Source: Synergistales bacterium
GTDB lineage: Bacteria > Synergistota > Synergistia > Synergistales > JAFGMB01
Reading direction: 5' to 3'
Assembly (NCBI GenBank): GCA_963666205.1
Contig: OY762654.1
Location: 1,440,001 to 1,504,000 of the forward strand
Length of the DNA stretch: 64,000 nt
Below the pieces are notes generated by a model. The model had not been told where the DNA came from and searched no databases. It saw nothing but the letters and a program-made list of their open reading frames with translations. Shown here piece after piece: positions 27,035 to 40,716 of the stretch. Both the position numbers and the translations under genes were made by a program. Position 1 is the stretch's first letter, and the number at the start of each line of letters is the position of its first letter.

Positions 27035-27073
27035 AAAAAAAGCCGGAACCCGGTGAAAACCGGGTTCCGGCTT
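27035..27073 (-). terminator. Attenuator terminator upstream of aroF
   Basis: AAGCCGGAACCCGGT-TTTC-ACCGGGTTCCGGC followed by T7 on the minus strand. Confidence 0.9.
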
Positions 27074-27103
27074 AATAATGTCTGATTTTCAGCTTATTGC
27101 TTT

Positions 27104-27259
27104 TTACAGCTGTATGCCAGGTTCATCAAGACAGGCCGATAACCGATTTTCACGTACTGAAAGACCACTGGCATAGGAATAAAGCCACTGGCCGCTGGTA
27201 AAGTAGAAATAATAGTATGCGAAAGAGCTATCGATGGTCTTACCAGGTACGTGCATCAT
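27104..27259 (-). CDS. aro operon leader peptide, 51 aa (MMHVPGKTIDSSFAYYYFYFTSGQWLYSYASGLSVRENRLSACLDEPGIQL)
   Basis: GAGGAG RBS; cluster of Phe/Tyr/Trp codons; lies between promoter and terminator. Confidence 0.85.
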   Translation of the reverse strand: MMHVPGKTIDSSFAYYYFYFTSGQWLYSYASGLSVRENRLSACLDEPGIQL

Positions 27260-28179: not shown

Positions 28180-28213
28180 TCTTATTCCTCCCTCTCTCTA
28201 ACAGCCTTAAAAT

Positions 28214-28246
28214 AAAAAAGCCGGGACCCTGAAAAGGGTCCCGGCC
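28214..28246 (-). terminator. Attenuator terminator upstream of pheC
   Basis: GCCGGGACCCT-TTTC-AGGGTCCCGGC followed by T6 on the minus strand. Confidence 0.9.
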
Positions 28247-28261
28247 TGAAAAAGCTTCTGG

Positions 28262-28354
28262 TCAAATAGCATCCAGAGCTCCAGGAGGGGACCCGCAGCT
28301 AAAAAAGAAGCTAAAAAAGGAAGATACATTATTAAATATGTTATGGAGCTTCAC
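28262..28354 (-). CDS. Phe leader peptide, 30 aa (MKLHNIFNNVSSFFSFFFSCGSPPGALDAI)
   Basis: AGGAGGTG RBS, GTG start, six Phe codons and no Tyr/Trp. Confidence 0.85.
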   Translation of the reverse strand: MKLHNIFNNVSSFFSFFFSCGSPPGALDAI

Positions 28355-28389
28355 GGGTTTCACCTCCTGATGGAATCTGATTTCAGACG

Positions 28390-29256
28390 CTATTTCACTG
28401 CTATGTCCCTGAGAATAGCCTCACGGGAGATCCTGCCCTCTTCAGCCATCACTTCAAACTTTTCGGGAGAAGAGTTTTTGAAATTCTGCAGTATTTCTAT
28501 CAATCTGTCAAGGAGAACTTCCATATTTTCATGATTTGTAGCCCACATATCAGCTGCAAGCCAGGCCGGACCTGAAGCCACCCTGGATGTATCCCTGAAA
28601 CCCCCTCCTACCATTCTGGGCAGGTTGGGAAAACTTTTTTTCTGTTCATCCGCCAGTAATGCAAGGGATGAAGCAAGTATGGTGGGGATATGGCTCACAC
28701 AGGCAAGGATCCTGTCATGTTCGACGGGATCCAGATAGACCGCATTTGAACCTATGGAGGACACTATTTCCGCAGCCAGTTCCATTGCCCGGGGATCGGT
28801 CAGACCATGGGGAACAATAGCACAGTCAGCCTTCCTGAACAGGTCGGGAGATGCATTTTCGATCCCGCTGTACTCCTTTCCTGCCATTGGATGGAGTCCT
28901 ACATAGGCCCCTCCCCAGATCCTTGACAGGGTTTCCCCTATCTCTTTTTTAGTACTCCCCACATCCATAACGGCAGCGGGGGTCTGGGCAAAAAAAGGTT
29001 TCAACATGAGACTTACCTCCTCCATGTTACGGAGGGGGACTGCCAGGATCAGTAAATCAATGGCGTCTGCAAATTCCGCAGCAGTGTAACAGGGCTCGAA
29101 CACAAAACCCATATCAAGGGCAGTTCTCAGAGCTTCGGGGTTCCGGTTCCATCCAAAAACCTGCTTTGCCGCTCCCGATCCTCCAAGGGACGCCGCAAGG
29201 GAACCTCCTATAAGACCAAGTCCTGCTATTCCAACGTTAAGATCTGATAATGTCAT
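28390..29256 (-). CDS. tyrA: Prephenate/arogenate dehydrogenase
   Basis: GLGLIGGS, DVGSTK, HPMAGKE, HD..A.VSH, GGGFRDTSRVA. Confidence 0.93.
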   Translation of the reverse strand: MTLSDLNVGIAGLGLIGGSLAASLGGSGAAKQVFGWNRNPEALRTALDMGFVFEPCYTAAEFADAIDLLILAVPLRNMEEVSLMLKPFFAQTPAAVMDVGSTKKEIGETLSRIWGGAYVGLHPMAGKEYSGIENASPDLFRKADCAIVPHGLTDPRAMELAAEIVSSIGSNAVYLDPVEHDRILACVSHIPTILASSLALLADEQKKSFPNLPRMVGGGFRDTSRVASGPAWLAADMWATNHENMEVLLDRLIEILQNFKNSSPEKFEVMAEEGRISREAILRDIAVK

Positions 29257-37556: not shown

Positions 37557-37941
37557 ATGGTAAAATCATTACGAATTACCAGGAGCTGGATAAAAACTGA
37601 AATGTCTATCCTGCCCGGAGGATCCAGAAAACAGAAAATTCCGAAGGACCAAAAAAAATCTTTTTCCACCATTTGCTGTTGCAGCTTCGTATTTCTAAAA
37701 GGACAGGGCCAATACGTTGAGACAGAAGCCGGAACATGATTCACACTATATACCAGATAATGCCGGTATGGGTTACACATTAATGGCCAATCTTTTTCCA
37801 GGAGAAATCTTTGGGAAGATAGCCATGCTGGAGGGCGCTATACCGGGCTGCCCTTCGAAAAGAAATCCTTCCGATATACAGAGGGTTTCAAATGTTGCAT
37901 GCCATCTCTGCATATTGTATAATCCGGTCGATTGCAGTTAA
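37557..37941 (+). pseudogene. Possible degraded cNMP-binding (Crp/Fnr-like) gene fragments
   Basis: Short broken ORFs; LFPGEIFGKIAMLEG resembles the PGD.FGE.AL motif. Confidence 0.3.
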
Positions 37942-37983
37942 TATCTGATGAAACAATTTTTCTTGACTAGGAGGGAATTTCTT

Positions 37984-38151
37984 ATGGCAGCAAAGATCGA
38001 CAAAGATACATGCGTAGGTTGCGAAACCTGTGTTGGAACCTGTCCTGTAGAGGCTATTTCCATGGTTGATGGCAAAGCTGAGGTTAACGACAGCTGCGTC
38101 GAATGCGGCGCCTGTGTTTCCGTTTGCCCCGTAGAGGCTATTTCTGTATAG
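37984..38151 (+). CDS. 2[4Fe-4S] ferredoxin
   Basis: Two CxxCxxCxxxCP motifs in 55 aa; GGAGG RBS. Confidence 0.95.
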   Translation: MAAKIDKDTCVGCETCVGTCPVEAISMVDGKAEVNDSCVECGACVSVCPVEAISV

Positions 38152-38173
38152 CATAGGCTCTAAGCAAGTTAGA

Positions 38174-38216
38174 TATAAGAAAAGGACTGCCCCCAAAGGC
38201 AGTCCTTTTCTTATAT
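38174..38216. terminator. Bidirectional terminator after ferredoxin
   Basis: TATAAGAAAAGGACTGCC..GGCAGTCCTTTTCTTATA. Confidence 0.85.
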
Positions 38217-38234
38217 AGAGGTCAGAAAGAGATT

Positions 38235-38498
38235 AAAAAGGGAATCCCTAAAGGGGGGCGGGATTCCCTTGGATTCGAGGTCGGAAAAGGTTGAATTATC
38301 CTTTTTATGGAACCTGCCAGAAGATATTTTTAAAAGACTTTTGCGTGCCCGGAGGTGGGGGTATCTACTCCGGAAAAGTTTTATAAAAATAGCCCTGTAA
38401 AACAAGGTCCATTCTATTAGAGGGGGGGAACCACAGTAATAGAAAATAGCAACATTTTCTCGACACTCTAGCCTGAACAAGCAGGCAAAACGAATAAT
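38235..38498 (-). ncRNA. Candidate structured sRNA A (~265 nt)
   Basis: Own promoter TTGACA-17-TAAAAT (38533-38505) and own terminator (38270-38235); no RBS-led ORF; C-rich loops. Confidence 0.6.
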
Positions 38499-38603
38499 GT
38501 AGGGATTTTATACGTGGATGTGTATTTTGTCAAGTTTAGCTTTTGCATATTTATTAGTTTATTTTGATACTACCAGACTTATCGTTTTATACCGTGGAAC
38601 AGT

Positions 38604-38902
38604 AAAAAAGGCCCAGCCTATGAACTGGGCCTTTTCTGATAAGAAGTAGAGGTATGATCGCGATAATGGCGTTATCGGCAAAATTAACGGGTCAAGGAGA
38701 GAGGTTATTACCCTTTTTTTAACAAAGGTAAAGGGGGAATTTGCGTGCTCCAGGAGGCAGATCCGGATAACCTTCGGGGAAAAGGGCCGAATCCTTGGCG
38801 GTAATAACCTCTTGAAATAAACCTTGAAACCCAAATAACGTAAGGGGGAACCAAACGTTCAAAGAGTATGCTTCATATATTTTCAAAGCTCGTTCTTTGT
38901 TG
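38604..38902 (-). ncRNA. Candidate structured sRNA B (~300 nt)
   Basis: Own promoter TTGACA-17-TAAAGT (38937-38909) and terminator (38635-38604); 12-bp long-range stem; motifs shared with A. Confidence 0.6.
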
Positions 38903-39227
38903 GCGTATACTTTATACTGCATATATAATTTTGTCAACCGTATTTTTGGCTTTTTTGTAAAGATAAAGTAAAATTAGGGTTTTAAAGAATAGTTAATGTA
39001 TGCTGAATAAACCCCTAAATTGAACACTCCGTTACGAAATTAACGCCTTTTAAAATGAAGATCTCCAGCCTTTGAAATGAAAGCAATAACCGGAAACTAC
39101 CTTTGACGGGTATACAACGAGAAATCGGGGATATTGTCAAAAACCTGAAACTTCAGGTACTTCACGGAGGGGAAGGCTTCGACAATATCCCCGGAGATAG
39201 GGGGTAAAGAACTCTTTTCTCCCTTCC

Positions 39228-39335
39228 CTATCGAAGACAGGGAAGATATGGGGGGGTATTGGGGAAAGAAAGTTCCCTTGCTCCTGTTTCTTTCTTTTTT
39301 CCTGCCTTCTGTTTTTCATCTTTGATCTGTGCCAT
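39228..39335 (-). CDS. Small ORF, 35 aa (MAQIKDEKQKAGKKKETGARELSFPNTPPYLPCLR)
   Basis: GGGAGGT RBS upstream of ATG; may be a truncated gene. Confidence 0.4.
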   Translation of the reverse strand: MAQIKDEKQKAGKKKETGARELSFPNTPPYLPCLR

Positions 39336-39375
39336 TTCTATAGACCTCCCTGATATTTTTCGTTTATATCTGCTT

Positions 39376-39543
39376 TCAGTACTTCCACCATCGGGGAATG
39401 GAAATACTCTTTACCTCTTCCTTTCTTTGAAAGGGTCCAGGCTTGTTCTCGGGAAGAAAGGGCGAATATCTGAACCCCGAAAGAGGTGTATCCATCACCT
39501 GCTCCTCCGGTATGCTTCGCCAGAAAAGGCTTTCTTCATCCAT
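39376..39543 (-). pseudogene. 55-aa ORF after the orphan attenuator, possibly a TrpE N-terminal relic
   Basis: AGGAGTGAGG RBS; DTPLSGF-RYSPFLPENKPG weakly resembles TrpE DTPLS...YSFLLES..G. Confidence 0.35.
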
Positions 39544-39571
39544 ATCCCTCACTCCTTTCCTCAAAGACCAT

Positions 39572-39610
39572 AAAAAAAACCGGGCTCCCTTAAAGTTCGG
39601 GAACCCGGCC
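39572..39610 (-). terminator. Attenuator terminator (orphan)
   Basis: GCCGGGTTCCC-loop-GGGAGCCCGG followed by T8. Confidence 0.88.
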
Positions 39611-39633
39611 TGAGATCTACTGGTCAACGCCTG

Positions 39634-39720
39634 TCAGACGCCGACCACCTCAGGTGAGTCCCCGCCGCTAAACCAGTAATAAAAGTAATAGCTGTTACTG
39701 TAAGAACTATTCTTTTTCAC
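39634..39720 (-). CDS. Aromatic leader peptide, 28 aa (MKKNSSYSNSYYFYYWFSGGDSPEVVGV)
   Basis: GAGGTG RBS, GTG start, seven consecutive aromatic codons YYFYYWF. Confidence 0.85.
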   Translation of the reverse strand: MKKNSSYSNSYYFYYWFSGGDSPEVVGV

Positions 39721-39775
39721 AGAGACACACCTCGCCTTCATCAATTCGTTTAAATTTTCAGAATTATTGCCGAAT

Positions 39776-39804
39776 ACTTTATACCCCTTATCCCCATTTG
39801 TCAA
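39776..39804 (-). promoter_or_regulatory. Sigma70 promoter of the orphan leader
   Basis: TTGACA-17-TAAAGT. Confidence 0.7.
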
Positions 39805-39975
39805 TACGCAACCTGAGAAAAAAAGAAAGAATATTTTCTCAGGTTGACAACCATACAATTCAAAAATTTCCCTGGGTGTTTTGAAATGGATTATACTAAA
39901 GAAAGTCAGGCAAAATTCCTGTAAAACAGATTATCAGCTAATTGTCCTGGGCATATGGACGGGGGGCATTAAACT

Positions 39976-40716
39976 TTGAAAAAACCAGAAGATTTCAGAA
40001 TCCTTCCAGCAGGAGAATCCTGCATCTTTGTAGATTTCGGATCCATGGTAAACCTTGAGATCAACGGCAGGGTCCAGGCATTAAAGAAAAAGGTTGAAAC
40101 AGAACAGCTTACCGGGATAAGGGAAGTTGTTCCAACCTACCGTTCACTGGCCATATATTTCGATCCTGTATTGCTGGACCTGGAAAGATTCATAAAAAGG
40201 CTCAAAGATATAATTCCCGGTACTGCATCCCTCCAGAATGAAACAGCAAGAACGGTGGTCATTCCCGTATGTTATGGCGGGGAATTCGGCCCGGACCTGG
40301 AAAGAGTGGCATCCCTCAAGGGACTGACCTGTGAGGAGGTTATTCGGAGGCACTCTTCAAGGGACTACTACTGCTACATGTTGGGATTTACCCCGGGTTT
40401 TCCATATCTTGGAGGAATGGATGAATCCATATCCGCACCGCGTCTGGAAAGCCCCAGGGAGGTAATACCAGCCGGCAGCGTCGGCATCGCAGGCACACAG
40501 ACCGGCATCTACCCCATAAGCAGCCCAGGGGGCTGGCAGCTTATCGGCCGGACACCCCTGACGCTCTTTGATCCACACAGAGAACCTCCCATACTCCTCG
40601 AATCGGGTATCTGGATCCGCTTTCGTCCTGTTTCAGAGGAAACATACCGAAAGATCTCGGAAAAGGCCGATTCCGGTAACGGGGATATGGAGCCACTGGA
40701 AAGAGGGCGATCCTGA
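39976..40716 (+). CDS. pxpB: 5-oxoprolinase subunit B
   Basis: VPTYRSL, PVCYGGEFGPDL, GFTPGFPY, SPGGWQLIG. Confidence 0.92.
   Translation: MKKPEDFRILPAGESCIFVDFGSMVNLEINGRVQALKKKVETEQLTGIREVVPTYRSLAIYFDPVLLDLERFIKRLKDIIPGTASLQNETARTVVIPVCYGGEFGPDLERVASLKGLTCEEVIRRHSSRDYYCYMLGFTPGFPYLGGMDESISAPRLESPREVIPAGSVGIAGTQTGIYPISSPGGWQLIGRTPLTLFDPHREPPILLESGIWIRFRPVSEETYRKISEKADSGNGDMEPLERGRS

What the first reader, a model, noticed from the sequence alone, without database searches (positions are those of the whole stretch)
38235..38937. Tandem pair of unrecognised, independently transcribed structured RNAs with C-rich loops
Seen: two consecutive minus-strand units, each with a near-consensus promoter (TTGACAAAAT...GTATAAA), about 265 or 300 nt lacking an RBS-led ORF, and an intrinsic terminator. 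Otherwise divergent, they share TGGTTCCCCC, displayed in a hairpin loop in both (stems TTCTATTA/TAATAGAA and AACGT/ACGTT; 38433-38424 and 38853-38844), and CCTCC(T)GG(A)GCACGCAAA (core 38348-38340 and 38748-38740). Unit B has a perfect 12-bp long-range helix (38701-38712 with 38800-38811) enclosing more CCCC loops. Known: unpaired UCCC motifs are the anti-SD seeds of RNAIII, RsaE and RoxS. Inference: a pair of sibling trans-acting sRNAs of a possibly undescribed family, in a genome with many G-rich RBSs.
Basis: partly seen in the sequence, partly recalled or inferred. Interest (0 to 1): 0.78.

Follow-up and report, generated by a model that had tools for sequence, protein, structure and literature searches.

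The report
Tandem C-rich small RNAs in Synergistales
Two neighbouring genes make structured RNAs rather than proteins; they are found in only one small family of anaerobic amino-acid-fermenting bacteria, match no catalogued RNA family, and probably switch other genes off by pairing with their ribosome-binding sites, although no target has been shown.

Summary
Unit B (about 38902-38604, minus strand) and unit A (about 38498-38235) each have a near-consensus promoter, a stably folding body, a terminator hairpin with a U-run, and no gene downstream.

- **Not a known family:** nothing in Rfam matches either unit.
- **Unit B is a conserved RNA:** a covariance model finds it in all 5 genomes of one Synergistales family and in 0 of 146 (order sample) and 0 of 147 (phylum sample) other genomes. 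Five metagenome contigs also carry it. 23 of 41 base pairs show changes on both sides.
- **Not coding:** the conserved blocks are read in different frames in different genomes.
- **Unit A is a diverged copy of B,** seen only in this genus. Other genera carry a different second RNA at that position.
- **Conserved exposed motifs:** UCCCC(G/A), UGCCUCCUG and AAU(U/C)CCCCCUUU. The first hairpin's C-rich loop is not conserved.
- **Mechanism is inferred only.** The best reading is an Hfq-independent anti-Shine-Dalgarno sRNA of the RsaE/RoxS kind.
- **"Independent" transcription is only partly supported.** B's terminator is damaged in the sister species, and RNA-library contigs bridge the units.
- **Wider locus:** the pair is linked to an aromatic-amino-acid leader-peptide attenuator with the same rare promoter type.

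The parts
38909..38937 (-). Promoter of unit B (TTGACA-17-TAAAGT; extended motif TTGACAA-N13-GTATAAA)
   Evidence: 10 of 12. The motif is unique to this locus in the genome. The same architecture is found in 9 of 10 homologue loci.
38604..38902 (-). Unit B RNA, about 300 nt. The start is inferred from the -10 hexamer; the end is the U-run after the terminator.
   Evidence: Fold z -4.55. Covariance model R1 scores 223 bits on 38645-38865. It is conserved in 5 of 5 family genomes. RNA-library contigs cover it.
38837..38859 (-). B hairpin P1 (AACGU/ACGUU, loop with GGUUCCCCC)
   Evidence: The stem covaries: 4 of 5 pairs change on both sides. The C-rich loop is lost in the L018/L022/L023 clade.
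38700..38812 (-). B core domain closed by the 13-bp long-range helix (38812-38800 with 38712-38700)
   Evidence: Helix 3 has 96.5% of cells paired; 6 of 13 pairs change on both sides and 6 never vary.
38775..38780 (-). Conserved hairpin loop UCCCCG (UCCCCA in one clade)
   Evidence: Alignment. Unpaired probability is 0.62-1.00 in 7 of 7 homologues.
38746..38759 (-). Conserved UGCCUCCUGGAGCA (CCUCC shown in a small loop closed by UGC/GCA)
   Evidence: (helix 6). UGCCUCCUG is invariant in all full homologues.
38730..38742 (-). Conserved single-stranded AAAUUCCCCCUUU
   Evidence: Unpaired probability is 0.57-0.88.
38654..38659 (-). Invariant GAUCAU in the 3' tail of B
   Evidence: Function unknown.
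38604..38635 (-). B terminator hairpin plus U-run
   Evidence: Fold. In the sister species 9 nt of the 5' arm are deleted.
38505..38533 (-). Promoter of unit A (TTGACA-17-TAAAAT)
   Evidence: 11 of 12.
38235..38498 (-). Unit A RNA, about 265 nt
   Evidence: Fold z -4.42. Against G001, 67 predicted pairs show 1 compensatory change, 7 one-sided changes that keep the pair, and 0 broken. RNA-library contigs cover it.
38412..38444 (-). A hairpin (UUCUAUUA/UAAUAGAA) with loop holding GGUUCCCCCCC
38349..38373 (-). A hairpin CCGGAG/CUCCGG with loop UAGAUACCCCCAC, followed by GCACGCAAA
38235..38268 (-). A terminator (GGGAAUCCC/GGGAUUCCC, C-rich 11-nt loop, U-run)
   Evidence: It is 97% identical in G001.
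37948..38151 (+). Convergent 2x[4Fe-4S] ferredoxin gene, a linked neighbour in all lineages
   Evidence: Pfam Fer4. It is found downstream and convergent in 8 of 10 homologue loci; the other 2 loci are cut short.
39572..39804 (-). Unit C: same promoter type, then a leader-peptide transcription attenuator. The peptide, encoded at 39720-39634, is MKKNSSYSNSYYFYYWFSGGDSPEVVGV.
   Evidence: It lies on the same contig as B in all 5 family genomes.
39228..39543 (-). Two small RBS-led ORFs (55 aa at 39543-39376; 35 aa at 39335-39228) between unit C and unit B
   Evidence: Both are conserved in G002 and G003. Neither has a Pfam family.

Best explanation
Units B and A are genes for two related, structured, non-coding RNAs of about 300 and 265 nt.

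Shown:
- Each unit has its own strong sigma-70-type promoter and, in this genome, its own intrinsic terminator.
- Unit B founds an RNA family restricted to one family of Synergistales.
- Unit A is a diverged copy of B that is specific to this genus.

Inferred (about half as likely as the claim that they are real ncRNAs):
- They act in trans.
- Several C-rich stretches are held single-stranded inside or beside a long-range helix: UCCCCG, CCUCCUGG and AAAUUCCCCCUUU in B, and GGUUCCCCCCC and ACCCCCACCUCC in A.
- These stretches pair with G-rich Shine-Dalgarno regions of mRNAs and block translation initiation.
- They do so without Hfq, as the C-rich sRNAs of Firmicutes do.
- Transcription may also run into them from the aromatic-amino-acid attenuator operon upstream.
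For: Real RNA genes:
- The promoters score 11 of 12 and 10 of 12. Their extended motif is found nowhere else in the genome and is kept in 9 of 10 homologue loci.
- The folds have z about -4.5.
- No gene lies downstream; a convergent ferredoxin gene follows.

Conservation and structure:
- Model R1 finds unit B in 5 of 5 family genomes and in 0 of 146 other genomes of the order.
- It finds B in 0 of 147 genomes of 12 other families in the phylum sample.
- 5 of the 6 loci found by the metagenome pattern scan are confirmed as B by the model.
- Across 9 distinct sequences, 90.1% of cells are paired, against 40-51% when the partners are slid.
- 23 of 41 pairs change on both sides, and 0 of 500 shuffles reach the observed covariation.
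- For unit A against G001, all 8 varied pairs stay paired.

Not coding:
- The conserved blocks are read in three different frames in G000, G002 and L023. Mismatches show no 3-periodicity (18/18/20, and similar). L020's longest ORF is 22 aa.

Exposed C-rich motifs:
- They are conserved and are predicted to be unpaired above the molecule's mean in 7 of 7 homologues.

Context:
- Hfq was not found in this complete genome.
- The 16S rRNA tail is GGAUCACCUCCUUUCU. GGAGG lies upstream of 35% of crudely called genes.

Expression hint:
- Contigs from RNA libraries of two studies cover 38283-39748. Their word depth is 16-141, against 3.75-12.7 on the flanking genes.

Precedent:
- C-rich regions of RsaE/RoxS pair with SD sequences, and RoxS works without Hfq (PMC4409812, passages read).
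Against: - No target is shown. The seeds bind RBS windows only about 1-2 kcal/mol better on average than intragenic windows, and the extremes are equal.
- The top-ranked gene (iorB) simply has the most G-rich RBS.
- The most eye-catching shared loop (P1, GGUUCCCCC) is not C-rich in one clade.
- B's helix sequence is itself strongly conserved: 6 of 13 pairs never vary. This could mean a protein or another partner reads it.
- B's terminator is not conserved.
- RNA-library contigs bridge promoters, so the units may be partly co-transcribed.
- The RNA evidence consists of assembled contigs from relatives. They cannot show strand, ends or level, and DNA carry-over is possible (the tool's own caveat).
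- Identity of A and B between G000 and G001 (0.92) is only modestly above third-codon and spacer identity (0.83-0.93).
- The alignment used for the pair counts was fitted to the model's structure, so the counts lean towards that structure.
Confidence: 0.45

Rival explanations
1. Exapted or decaying leader-peptide attenuators. B and A descend from the attenuator family that unit C belongs to. Their CCUCCUGG and GGUUCCCCC motifs are the inherited anti-SD strand, which in real attenuators pairs with the leader peptide's own SD. Today they are orphan leaders with a cis role or no role, for example as promoter and terminator insulators at the end of the operon.
For: - The same rare promoter architecture occurs in C, B and A and nowhere else in the genome.
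- The attenuator core GCGG(A/G)UCCCCUCCUGG resembles B's GGAUCUGCCUCCUGGAGC and A's CUGUGGUUCCCCCCCU.
- An nhmmer profile of the 7 attenuators gives its best hit on exactly that part of A, but only at E 0.059 and 2.8 bits.
- B and A always lie downstream of unit C on the same contig.
Against: - Attenuator model R3 gives no match in 38200-38950 at E up to 0.01.
- The nhmmer hit is not significant.
- B has no conserved SD-led leader ORF.
- There is no downstream gene to regulate.
- A functionless relic would not keep 23 covarying pairs across three genera.
Confidence: 0.15
2. Protein-binding or sponge RNA. The conserved helix and the C-rich loops bind and titrate an RNA-binding protein, for example a KH- or CSD-type protein that reads C-rich loops, or another RNA, rather than mRNA RBSs.
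For: - The sequence of the 13-bp helix and of GAUCAU is conserved beyond what pairing needs.
- There are several similar motifs per molecule.
- No specific mRNA target stands out.
- G-rich sponge RNAs for C-rich sRNAs exist in Firmicutes: RosA and RsaI (PMC8216469, passages read).
Against: - No candidate protein was identified.
- CsrA is present, but its GGA motif is not repeated in conserved loops here.
- Unit C, the G-rich neighbour, offers only 5-7 bp of complementarity to B or A, and this is not conserved (my reading).
Confidence: 0.15
3. Not stand-alone genes. B and A are mainly the structured 3' part of a longer transcript that starts at the aromatic attenuator (unit C), runs through the two small ORFs, and may later be processed.
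For: - One RNA-library contig bridges 39477 to 38834 across B's promoter, and another bridges 38668 to 38317 across A's promoter.
- G001 lacks half of B's terminator.
- C, B and A are linked in all five genomes.
Against: - The B promoter is conserved in 9 of 10 loci.
- In G002 and G004, about 3.4 kb with a transporter gene and a dehydrogenase gene separates C from B.
- Unit C and, in this genome, B end in strong terminators.
- Contigs can merge overlapping transcripts or contaminating DNA.
Confidence: 0.1
4. They encode small proteins, for example the 91-aa, 72-aa or 48-aa ORFs across B, or the 33-aa ORF in A.
For: Long stop-free frames exist in B in 6 of 7 distinct homologues. G002 and G003 share one frame over about 40 codons.
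Against: - The ORFs start with TTG or GTG and have no SD.
- G000, G002 and L023 read the same conserved nucleotides in different frames.
- G001 has a stop in the PP frame.
- There is no codon-position bias in the substitutions.
- BLASTP of the G000 ORF against the G002 ORF aligns only 26 residues at 38% identity.
Confidence: 0.03

Closest known systems
RsaE / RoxS (Firmicutes), with FsrA as a related case
   Same: - Several C-rich regions are held unpaired.
- They have their own promoter and intrinsic terminator.
- They act, or are proposed here to act, on G-rich SD sequences without needing Hfq.
- They are linked to redox and central metabolism; here the neighbour is a ferredoxin gene.

Source: PMC4409812, passages read.
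   Different: - There is no sequence or covariance-model similarity.
- These RNAs are 2-3 times longer, and their motifs sit inside a multi-branch domain closed by a 13-bp helix.
- They occur in a different phylum, in one family only.
- Their targets and regulators are unknown.
Staphylococcus aureus RNAIII C-rich hairpin loops (recalled, not checked in a call)
   Same: UCCC-type motifs are displayed in hairpin loops of a long, multi-domain regulatory RNA.
   Different: RNAIII is about 500 nt, encodes a peptide, and is quorum-controlled. There is no homology.
Tandem sibling sRNAs such as PrrF1/PrrF2 (with the read-through form PrrH) or OmrA/OmrB (recalled, not checked in a call)
   Same: - Two related sRNA genes lie head to tail, each with its own promoter.
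- Loss or read-through of the first terminator gives a longer fused species. That appears to be the state of G001 and of the bridging RNA contig.
   Different: Those pairs are nearly identical to each other and depend on Hfq. Here the copies are highly diverged, and only the first is conserved across genera.
Leader-peptide transcription attenuators (classical trp, phe, leu and ilv leaders; here the family of unit C)
   Same: - The promoter type and the terminator style are shared.
- The CCUCCUGG-like C-rich segment is shared.
- The position in the same locus is shared.
   Different: - B and A have no conserved SD-led leader ORF and no downstream gene.
- Model R3 does not match them.
RosA / RsaI sponge RNAs
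   Same: They are stand-alone sRNAs that belong to the C-rich/G-rich pairing network (PMC8216469).
   Different: Those sponges are G-rich and bind C-rich sRNAs. B and A are themselves the C-rich side. No convincing G-rich partner was found here.

Membership tests
RsaE/RoxS sRNA family | Match to the curated Rfam covariance model | tested here: not met
   There are 0 matches at gathering score in the 64-kb window. The family is not among the 28 matches with E up to 10 in 38100-40000.
RsaE/RoxS sRNA family | Several conserved C-rich regions in unpaired positions | tested here: met
   Three C-rich motifs are conserved in all B homologues. They are predicted to be unpaired above the molecule's mean in 7 of 7 homologues.
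RsaE/RoxS sRNA family | Base pairing with SD regions of target mRNAs that represses translation | tested here: inconclusive
   The seed-versus-RBS scan shows only a 1-2 kcal/mol mean advantage over intragenic controls. The top candidate, iorB, is not specific.
6S RNA | Match to Rfam RF00013 and a rod shape with a central bubble | tested here: not met
   There is no 6S match in the region even at E up to 10. A full-length 6S-like match lies elsewhere in the genome, at C1:505656-505832 (36.5 bits, below the cut-off of 46.4).
Leader-peptide transcription attenuator (family of unit C, model R3) | Match to the family model | tested here: not met
   In the window R3 matches only 39572-39778, 28213-28402 and 27035-27158. 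The nhmmer profile's best hit on A has E 0.059.
Leader-peptide transcription attenuator (family of unit C, model R3) | SD-led short ORF with a run of regulatory codons, conserved as a peptide | tested here: not met
   B has no conserved frame. Unit C and the six other copies do have one.
Leader-peptide transcription attenuator (family of unit C, model R3) | A regulated gene downstream on the same strand | tested here: not met
   B is followed by A, and A by a convergent ferredoxin gene.
T-box leader | Match to Rfam RF00230 | tested here: not met
   The search lists 7 matches: six of 65-120 bits at other places in the genome and one weak 14.4-bit match (E 0.885). None lies in this locus.
Stand-alone bacterial sRNA gene (generic) | Own promoter, own terminator, no ORF, and a transcript observed | tested here: inconclusive
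   The promoter and the absence of an ORF are met. The terminator is met in G000 but is not conserved for B. The transcript evidence is only contigs from RNA libraries of relatives.
Sibling (paralogous) sRNA pair | Similarity between the two units beyond chance | tested here: met
   The collinear global alignment scores 28 against 11.1 +/- 3.4 in dinucleotide shuffles (z 5.0; 0 of 300 reach it). The best local block is the promoter alone, which 12 of 500 shuffles reach. R1 itself does not detect A (10.7 bits, E 0.46).

The most novel reading that the evidence does not exclude
The locus is one aromatic-amino-acid RNA module built from a single ancestral part.

- A leader-peptide attenuator (unit C) senses charged Tyr, Phe and Trp tRNA.
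- B and A are former attenuators of the same stock. Their anti-SD strand, freed from its own leader, now works in trans on G-rich ribosome-binding sites.
- The best candidate target is the duplicated indolepyruvate:ferredoxin oxidoreductase gene iorB. Repressing it would spare arylpyruvates for amino-acid synthesis when aromatic amino acids run short.

If true, this would document the birth of trans-acting sRNAs from cis-acting attenuators.
Probability: 0.1. Interest if true: 0.7.

Novelty: new member of a known kind. Interest (0 to 1): 0.45.

Why it matters
Regulatory RNAs are almost unknown in Synergistota. A 2022 review table lists one annotated sRNA for the whole phylum (PMC9029176, passage seen). 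The one genome-wide ncRNA survey that I found for the phylum, on Thermovirga lienii, reports nothing like this in the passages I read (PMC6429828; its supplements were not read).

This is a well-bounded, covariation-supported RNA family in a genome that is complete, with a defined promoter type and clear motifs to mutate. If the C-rich motifs do pair with ribosome-binding sites, the Hfq-independent "anti-SD seed" strategy known from Firmicutes would extend to a distant diderm phylum.

The linked attenuator family may matter more in practice. It predicts amino-acid-responsive control of leu, ilv/pan and aro genes across much of the phylum, and it gives annotators a model for about 200-nt leaders that Rfam does not cover.

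Tried and rejected
- **Rfam.** The whole window at gathering score gives 0 matches. At E up to 10, 38100-40000 gives 28 weak matches. The best is rimP on the plus strand (31.9 bits against a cut-off of 47), which is only the two terminator hairpins read backwards.
- **Repeat or mobile element.** BLAST of the 761-nt region against its own genome gives only the self-match.
- **6S RNA.** Rejected.
- **T-box, for unit C.** Rejected; the genome's T-boxes lie elsewhere.
- **Small protein.** Rejected.
- **Unit A as a homologue of the second unit (A') of other genera.** Model R2 finds all 7 A' copies (100-119 bits) but nothing in 38232-38500.
- **Unit C as a G-rich sponge for B or A.** Only 5-7 bp of non-conserved complementarity, by eye. 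My first attempt to score it with full-length duplexfold gave a meaningless -98 kcal/mol duplex, and an earlier script timed out.
- **Ferredoxin RBS as a conserved target of the AAAUUCCCCC motif.** 8 bp in G000, 7 in G002 and 4 in L023, by eye. Not conserved.
- **Genome-wide target scan.** No signal above the intragenic controls. iorB ranks 1 of 3228 on a combined score that I chose after seeing the data. Its G004-type orthologue keeps the register with one A-U to U-A swap. G002 and G003 have only a paralogue with a plain AAGGAGGA site. This is a lead, not evidence.
- **Pattern scans.** The genome-contig scan found only the two MAGs already known. One of the 6 metagenome hits (L019) is a chance match in coding DNA.
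- **Parts of the locus without RNA-contig cover** (for example 38185-38261 in all three RNA runs). No conclusion is drawn.
- **Earlier notes of this scan.** Nothing near the locus, nothing by sequence, and nothing relevant among the 8 findings shown for the genome.
- **Model building.** A shorter alignment worked.
Full report
**What is in the sequence**

I read 37900-39300 on the minus strand.
- The two TGGTTCCCCC copies lie at 38433-38424 and 38853-38844.
- Both hairpin stems are present as described.
- The two GCACGCAAA cores lie at 38348-38340 and 38748-38740.
- The perfect 12-bp helix pairs 38811-38800 with 38712-38701, and one more pair extends it to 13 bp.

The promoter scan lists TTGACA-17-TAAAAT at 38533-38505 (11 of 12) and TTGACA-17-TAAAGT at 38937-38909 (10 of 12). 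The 2.4-kb region holds 7 promoter-like sites, against 4.1 +/- 2.5 in shuffles.

Both units end in a stable hairpin followed by a U-run in the minimum-energy folds. Both fold better than dinucleotide shuffles: B has z -4.55 (0 of 100 as good) and A has z -4.42 (0 of 200).

The simple terminator scan did not list these two terminators on the minus strand. The scan does list a weaker internal terminator-like site inside A at 38407-38393.

No RBS-led ORF of 25 aa or more lies in either unit. The units sit in a 1.8-kb stretch with no long ORF, between a convergent ferredoxin gene (37948-38151, plus strand) and a divergent pxpB-like gene (39976 onward).

**Not a known RNA, not a repeat**

- Rfam gives 0 matches at gathering score in the whole window.
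- With E up to 10 on 38100-40000 it gives 28 weak matches. None is near its family's cut-off. The best (rimP, plus strand, 31.9 against 47 bits) is just the two terminator hairpins.
- In its own complete 2.95-Mb genome the 761-nt region matches only itself.
- A 6S-like RNA lies elsewhere, at C1:505656-505832 (36.5 bits, below the cut-off).

**Unit B is a conserved, structured RNA family with a narrow range**

BLAST against 41 related genomes found three matches outside G000:
- the whole region at 89% identity in the other species of the genus (G001);
- the centre of unit B at 69% in G002, a second genus;
- a short piece at 86% in G003, a third genus.

Read directly, G002 and G003 show the same layout: the same promoter, a first hairpin, the long-range helix, an inner hairpin with a UCCCCG loop, GCCUCCUG(G/A)AGCA, and AAUUCCCCCUUU.

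Public records of G002 and G003 are titled "Synergistales bacterium".

A covariance model of the core (R1: 212 positions, 41 pairs) gave these results:
- It found unit B in all 5 genomes of that family, one of them cut at a contig end, and in 0 of 146 genomes of nine other families of the order.
- In a phylum-wide sample it found B in all 4 family genomes drawn, and in 0 of 147 genomes from twelve other families.
- These searches use strict filters and score only about 15 candidates per genome. The right wording is therefore "not found in those searched".

A pattern scan of metagenome contigs gave 6 loci. R1 confirmed 5 of them. The sixth (L019) is a chance match inside coding DNA.

The resulting alignment has 11 rows, 9 of them distinct:
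- 90.1% of cells form standard pairs, against 40-51% when the 3' partners are slid by 1-3 columns.
- 23 of 41 pairs show changes on both sides.
- 0 of 500 column shuffles reach the observed covariation score.

This alignment was fitted to the model, so the counts lean towards the structure. An independent RNAalifold run on four sequences had already given 9 of 36 pairs with compensatory change.

**What is conserved and what is not**

Invariant or nearly so:
- the loop UCCCC(G/A);
- UGCCUCCUG(A/G)AG;
- AAU(U/C)CCCCCUUU(U);
- most of the 13-bp helix sequence;
- a GAUCAU in the 3' tail.

The three C-rich motifs have predicted unpaired probabilities of 0.26-1.00 in 7 of 7 distinct homologues. Most values lie above the molecule's mean of 0.34-0.47. 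The single value below the mean is CCUCC in L022, at 0.26.

Not conserved:
- The C-rich loop of the first hairpin. It reads GAAGUUAUUUCUUC in the L018/L022/L023 clade.
- B's terminator. G001 has lost 9 nt of its 5' arm. G002 has a hairpin with no U-run, and G003 has none that I could see.

**Not protein-coding**

B carries long stop-free frames in 6 of 7 distinct homologues, so I tested coding directly.
- The candidate ORFs start at TTG or GTG without an SD.
- The same conserved nucleotide blocks are read in different frames in G000, G002/G003 and L023. G001 has a stop in one of these frames, and L020's longest ORF is 22 aa.
- Mismatches show no codon periodicity, for example 18/18/20 and 17/20/17 by codon position.
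- BLASTP of the G000 ORF against the G002 ORF aligns 26 residues at 38% identity.

Selection therefore acts on the RNA.

**Unit A**

R1 does not detect unit A (10.7 bits, E 0.46).

The other genera also carry a second promoter-to-terminator unit between B and the ferredoxin gene, which I call A'. It is C-rich and closed by a long helix. A model of A' (R2) recovers all 7 A' copies but nothing in 38232-38500. Unit A as such is therefore confined to genus g1.

Within G000, A and B align collinearly with a score of 28, against 11.1 +/- 3.4 for shuffles (z 5.0; 0 of 300 reach it). The best local block is the promoter alone. The aligned elements are:
- the promoter;
- TGGTTCCCCC;
- CTTTTCC(CC)G(A/G)AG;
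- CCTCC-GG-GCACGCAAA;
- AAAAAGG(G/A)TAAT..AACCT.

I read A as a diverged copy of B.

Between G000 and G001, 67 pairs are predicted in A. One shows a compensatory C-G to U-A change, 7 keep pairing after a one-sided change, and none is broken.

Overall identity of the A and B bodies between the two species is 0.92. Third-codon positions are at 0.87 and 0.925, and three spacers are at 0.83, 0.865 and 0.93. The within-genus signal of constraint is therefore modest.

**A trio, not a pair, and what the third unit is**

The extended promoter motif TTGACAA-N13-GTATAAA occurs exactly three times in the genome, counting both strands. All three lie here: A, B and a third unit C at 39804. B homologues keep this architecture in 9 of 10 loci.

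Unit C (39778-39572) ends in a strong terminator. It is 73-76% identical in all four other family genomes, always on the same contig as B and 0.8-3.6 kb upstream of it.

A model of C (R3) matched 68 of 151 genomes of the phylum sample, often several times per genome. G000 has 7 copies. These are not T-boxes; the genome's T-box matches lie elsewhere.

Reading the seven G000 copies shows what they are. Each has an SD, a GTG or ATG start, and a peptide of 27-33 codons that ends roughly in CGSPPG just before the terminator. Each peptide holds a run of one kind of residue that fits the genes downstream:

| Leader peptide run | Downstream genes (Pfam) |
|---|---|
| LLGLL | aconitase-family LeuC-like gene |
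| VVVVV | PanB and a class IV aminotransferase |
| FFSFFF (window 28213-28402) | solute-binding protein and DAHP synthase, after prephenate dehydrogenase |

Unit C's own peptide is MKKNSSYSNSYYFYYWFSGGDSPEVVGV. The aromatic run is kept in G002 and G003 (my translation of the alignment; ORF list).

Unit C is thus an aromatic-amino-acid leader-peptide attenuator. It precedes two small conserved ORFs of 55 aa and 35-51 aa, neither with a Pfam family. In G002 these are followed by a sodium:solute symporter gene and an Ldh_2-family dehydrogenase gene before B.

**Is it transcribed, and as what?**

No raw-read RNA data were on offer. Contigs from three metatranscriptome runs of marine sediment, from two studies, were laid at 85% likeness or more. 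They cover nearly all of 38283-39748 and are 85-99% alike, so they come from relatives.
- Word depths on the locus are 16-141. On the ferredoxin and pxpB genes they are 3.75-12.7.
- The tool warns that contig depth cannot rank genes, that DNA may be present in RNA libraries, and that contigs show neither strand nor ends. I take this as a hint of expression and no more.
- One contig runs 38317-38668, across A's promoter and B's terminator region.
- Another joins 39477 to 38834, across B's promoter. It lacks the same 163 nt that G001 lacks.

This agrees with G001's damaged terminator. In relatives, at least, the units are partly co-transcribed.

**Mechanism**

Shown:
- promoters, terminators, a conserved fold, and conserved unpaired C-rich motifs;
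- no coding capacity and no downstream gene;
- conserved linkage to the ferredoxin gene, which lies convergent within 1.4 kb in 8 of 10 loci; the other two loci are cut;
- conserved linkage to attenuator C.

Context:
- Hfq was not found in this complete genome; CsrA is present.
- The 16S tail is GGAUCACCUCCUUUCU.
- Of 3228 crudely called genes, 35% have GGAGG and 2.8% have GGGGG in the 17 nt upstream window.

Inferred: the C-rich motifs pair with G-rich RBSs, as shown for RsaE/RoxS, where RoxS regulation did not need Hfq (PMC4409812, passages read).

My own test of this is weak.
- Eight seed segments bind the -35..+15 windows of genes only 1-2 kcal/mol better on average than intragenic windows, and the extremes are similar.
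- The highest-ranked gene on a combined score that I chose after seeing the data is the duplicated iorB (POR family). Its RBS, GAAGGGGAGGAGG, is simply very G-rich.
- The G004-type orthologue keeps the pairing register with one A-U to U-A swap. G002 and G003 have only a paralogue with an ordinary site.

I keep iorB as a lead for experiment, not as evidence.

**Rivals**

- **Attenuator origin.** B and A may descend from the attenuator family. They share the rare promoter. The attenuator core GCGG(A/G)UCCCCUCCUGG resembles motifs in B and A. However, R3 does not match them and an nhmmer profile reaches only E 0.059 on A.
- **Protein-binding or sponge role.** This would explain the conserved helix sequence and the invariant GAUCAU, but I found no partner.
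- **Co-transcription with the upstream operon.** The bridging contigs support this. The conserved B promoter argues against it, as does the 3.4-kb gene insert between C and B in G002 and G004.
- **Coding.** Rejected.

**Comparison and novelty**

Functionally the closest known RNAs are the C-rich sRNAs of Firmicutes: RsaE/RoxS, FsrA and the RNAIII loops. There is no homology with them, and the size and architecture differ.

As tandem siblings with read-through, B and A recall PrrF1/PrrF2 (recalled from memory).

The literature I could check:
- A 2022 review table lists one annotated sRNA for Synergistetes (PMC9029176).
- Full-text searches for "Synergistetes" with "small RNA", and with "leader peptide" and "attenuation", gave nothing on RNAs like these in the listings and passages that I read.
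- Supplements of the Thermovirga lienii survey (PMC6429828) were not read and could hold related intergenic candidates.

I file this as a new family of a known kind (a stand-alone C-rich sRNA), with its mechanism unproven.

**Verdict**

- That these are real non-coding RNA genes: about 0.85.
- That they act as anti-SD base-pairing regulators: about 0.45.
- Interest: 0.45.

Noticed in passing
window 39572-39804 (-); also 28213-28402 (-) and 27035-27158 (-); G000:C1 992569, 1189406, 911140, 1596458, 1748955: A multicopy family of about 200-nt leader-peptide transcription attenuators that Rfam does not cover. Each has an SD, a start codon and a peptide of 27-33 codons with a run of regulatory residues: YYFYYWF, FFSFFF, LLGLL, VVVVV or IVVIII. 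Each peptide has a shared C-terminal ~CGSPPG, followed by a terminator. The residue runs fit the downstream leu, pan/ilv and aro genes. Model R3 matches 68 of 151 genomes of the phylum sample.
   Followed up: partly
window 39376-39543 (-) and 39228-39335 (-); L035 283-574; L026 1749-2083: Two small RBS-led ORFs lie downstream of the aromatic attenuator and are conserved in three genera. One has 55 aa with GF(R/Q)Y...P(H/R)W(W/R)(K/R)(Y/S) at the end. The other has 35-51 aa, is lysine-rich, and ends in LPCL(R/C). Neither has a Pfam family. The 55-aa ORF shows 5 synonymous against 2 non-synonymous differences between G000 and G001 (my count).
   Followed up: partly
L035 842-1753 and L016 172-1251 (G002): In G002 and G004 a sodium:solute symporter gene and an Ldh_2-family dehydrogenase gene lie between the small ORFs and unit B. 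They are missing in G000, G001 and G003. The operon controlled by the aromatic attenuator may be a salvage or uptake module.
   Followed up: no
window 38963-39127: A stretch of about 130-163 nt, present in G000, is absent from G001 and from the metatranscriptome variant. A contig joins 38963 to 39127 with 32 other letters between.
   Followed up: no
window 39100-39225 (-): Another C-rich, strongly conserved non-coding stretch lies between the 35-aa ORF and B's promoter (GGAAGGGAG...UUACCCCCUAUCUCCGGGGAUA...CCUUCCCCUCC). It includes a promoter-like TTGACAATAT...TGTATAC.
   Followed up: no
L010 1260-1390; L011 1210-1340; L023 (-) 1000-905: In G002, G003 and the G004-type contigs a further short conserved unit precedes B's promoter. 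It has the promoter TTGACT-N17-TA(C/A)AAT and a conserved CAUCCUGCAUACAGG.
   Followed up: no
G000:C1:505656-505832 (-): A full-length but sub-threshold match to 6S RNA (36.5 bits, E 9.4e-6, cut-off 46.4). It is probably the genome's divergent 6S RNA.
   Followed up: no
window 38393-38407 (-): A terminator-like hairpin inside unit A (CCUUGUUUUACAGGG followed by CUAUUUUUAU) could give a shorter species of about 110 nt.
   Followed up: no
G000:C1:2511704 and 2515651: Two identical copies of an iorB-like gene (POR family) lie 4 kb apart, which implies a duplicated indolepyruvate/2-oxoacid:ferredoxin oxidoreductase operon.
   Followed up: no
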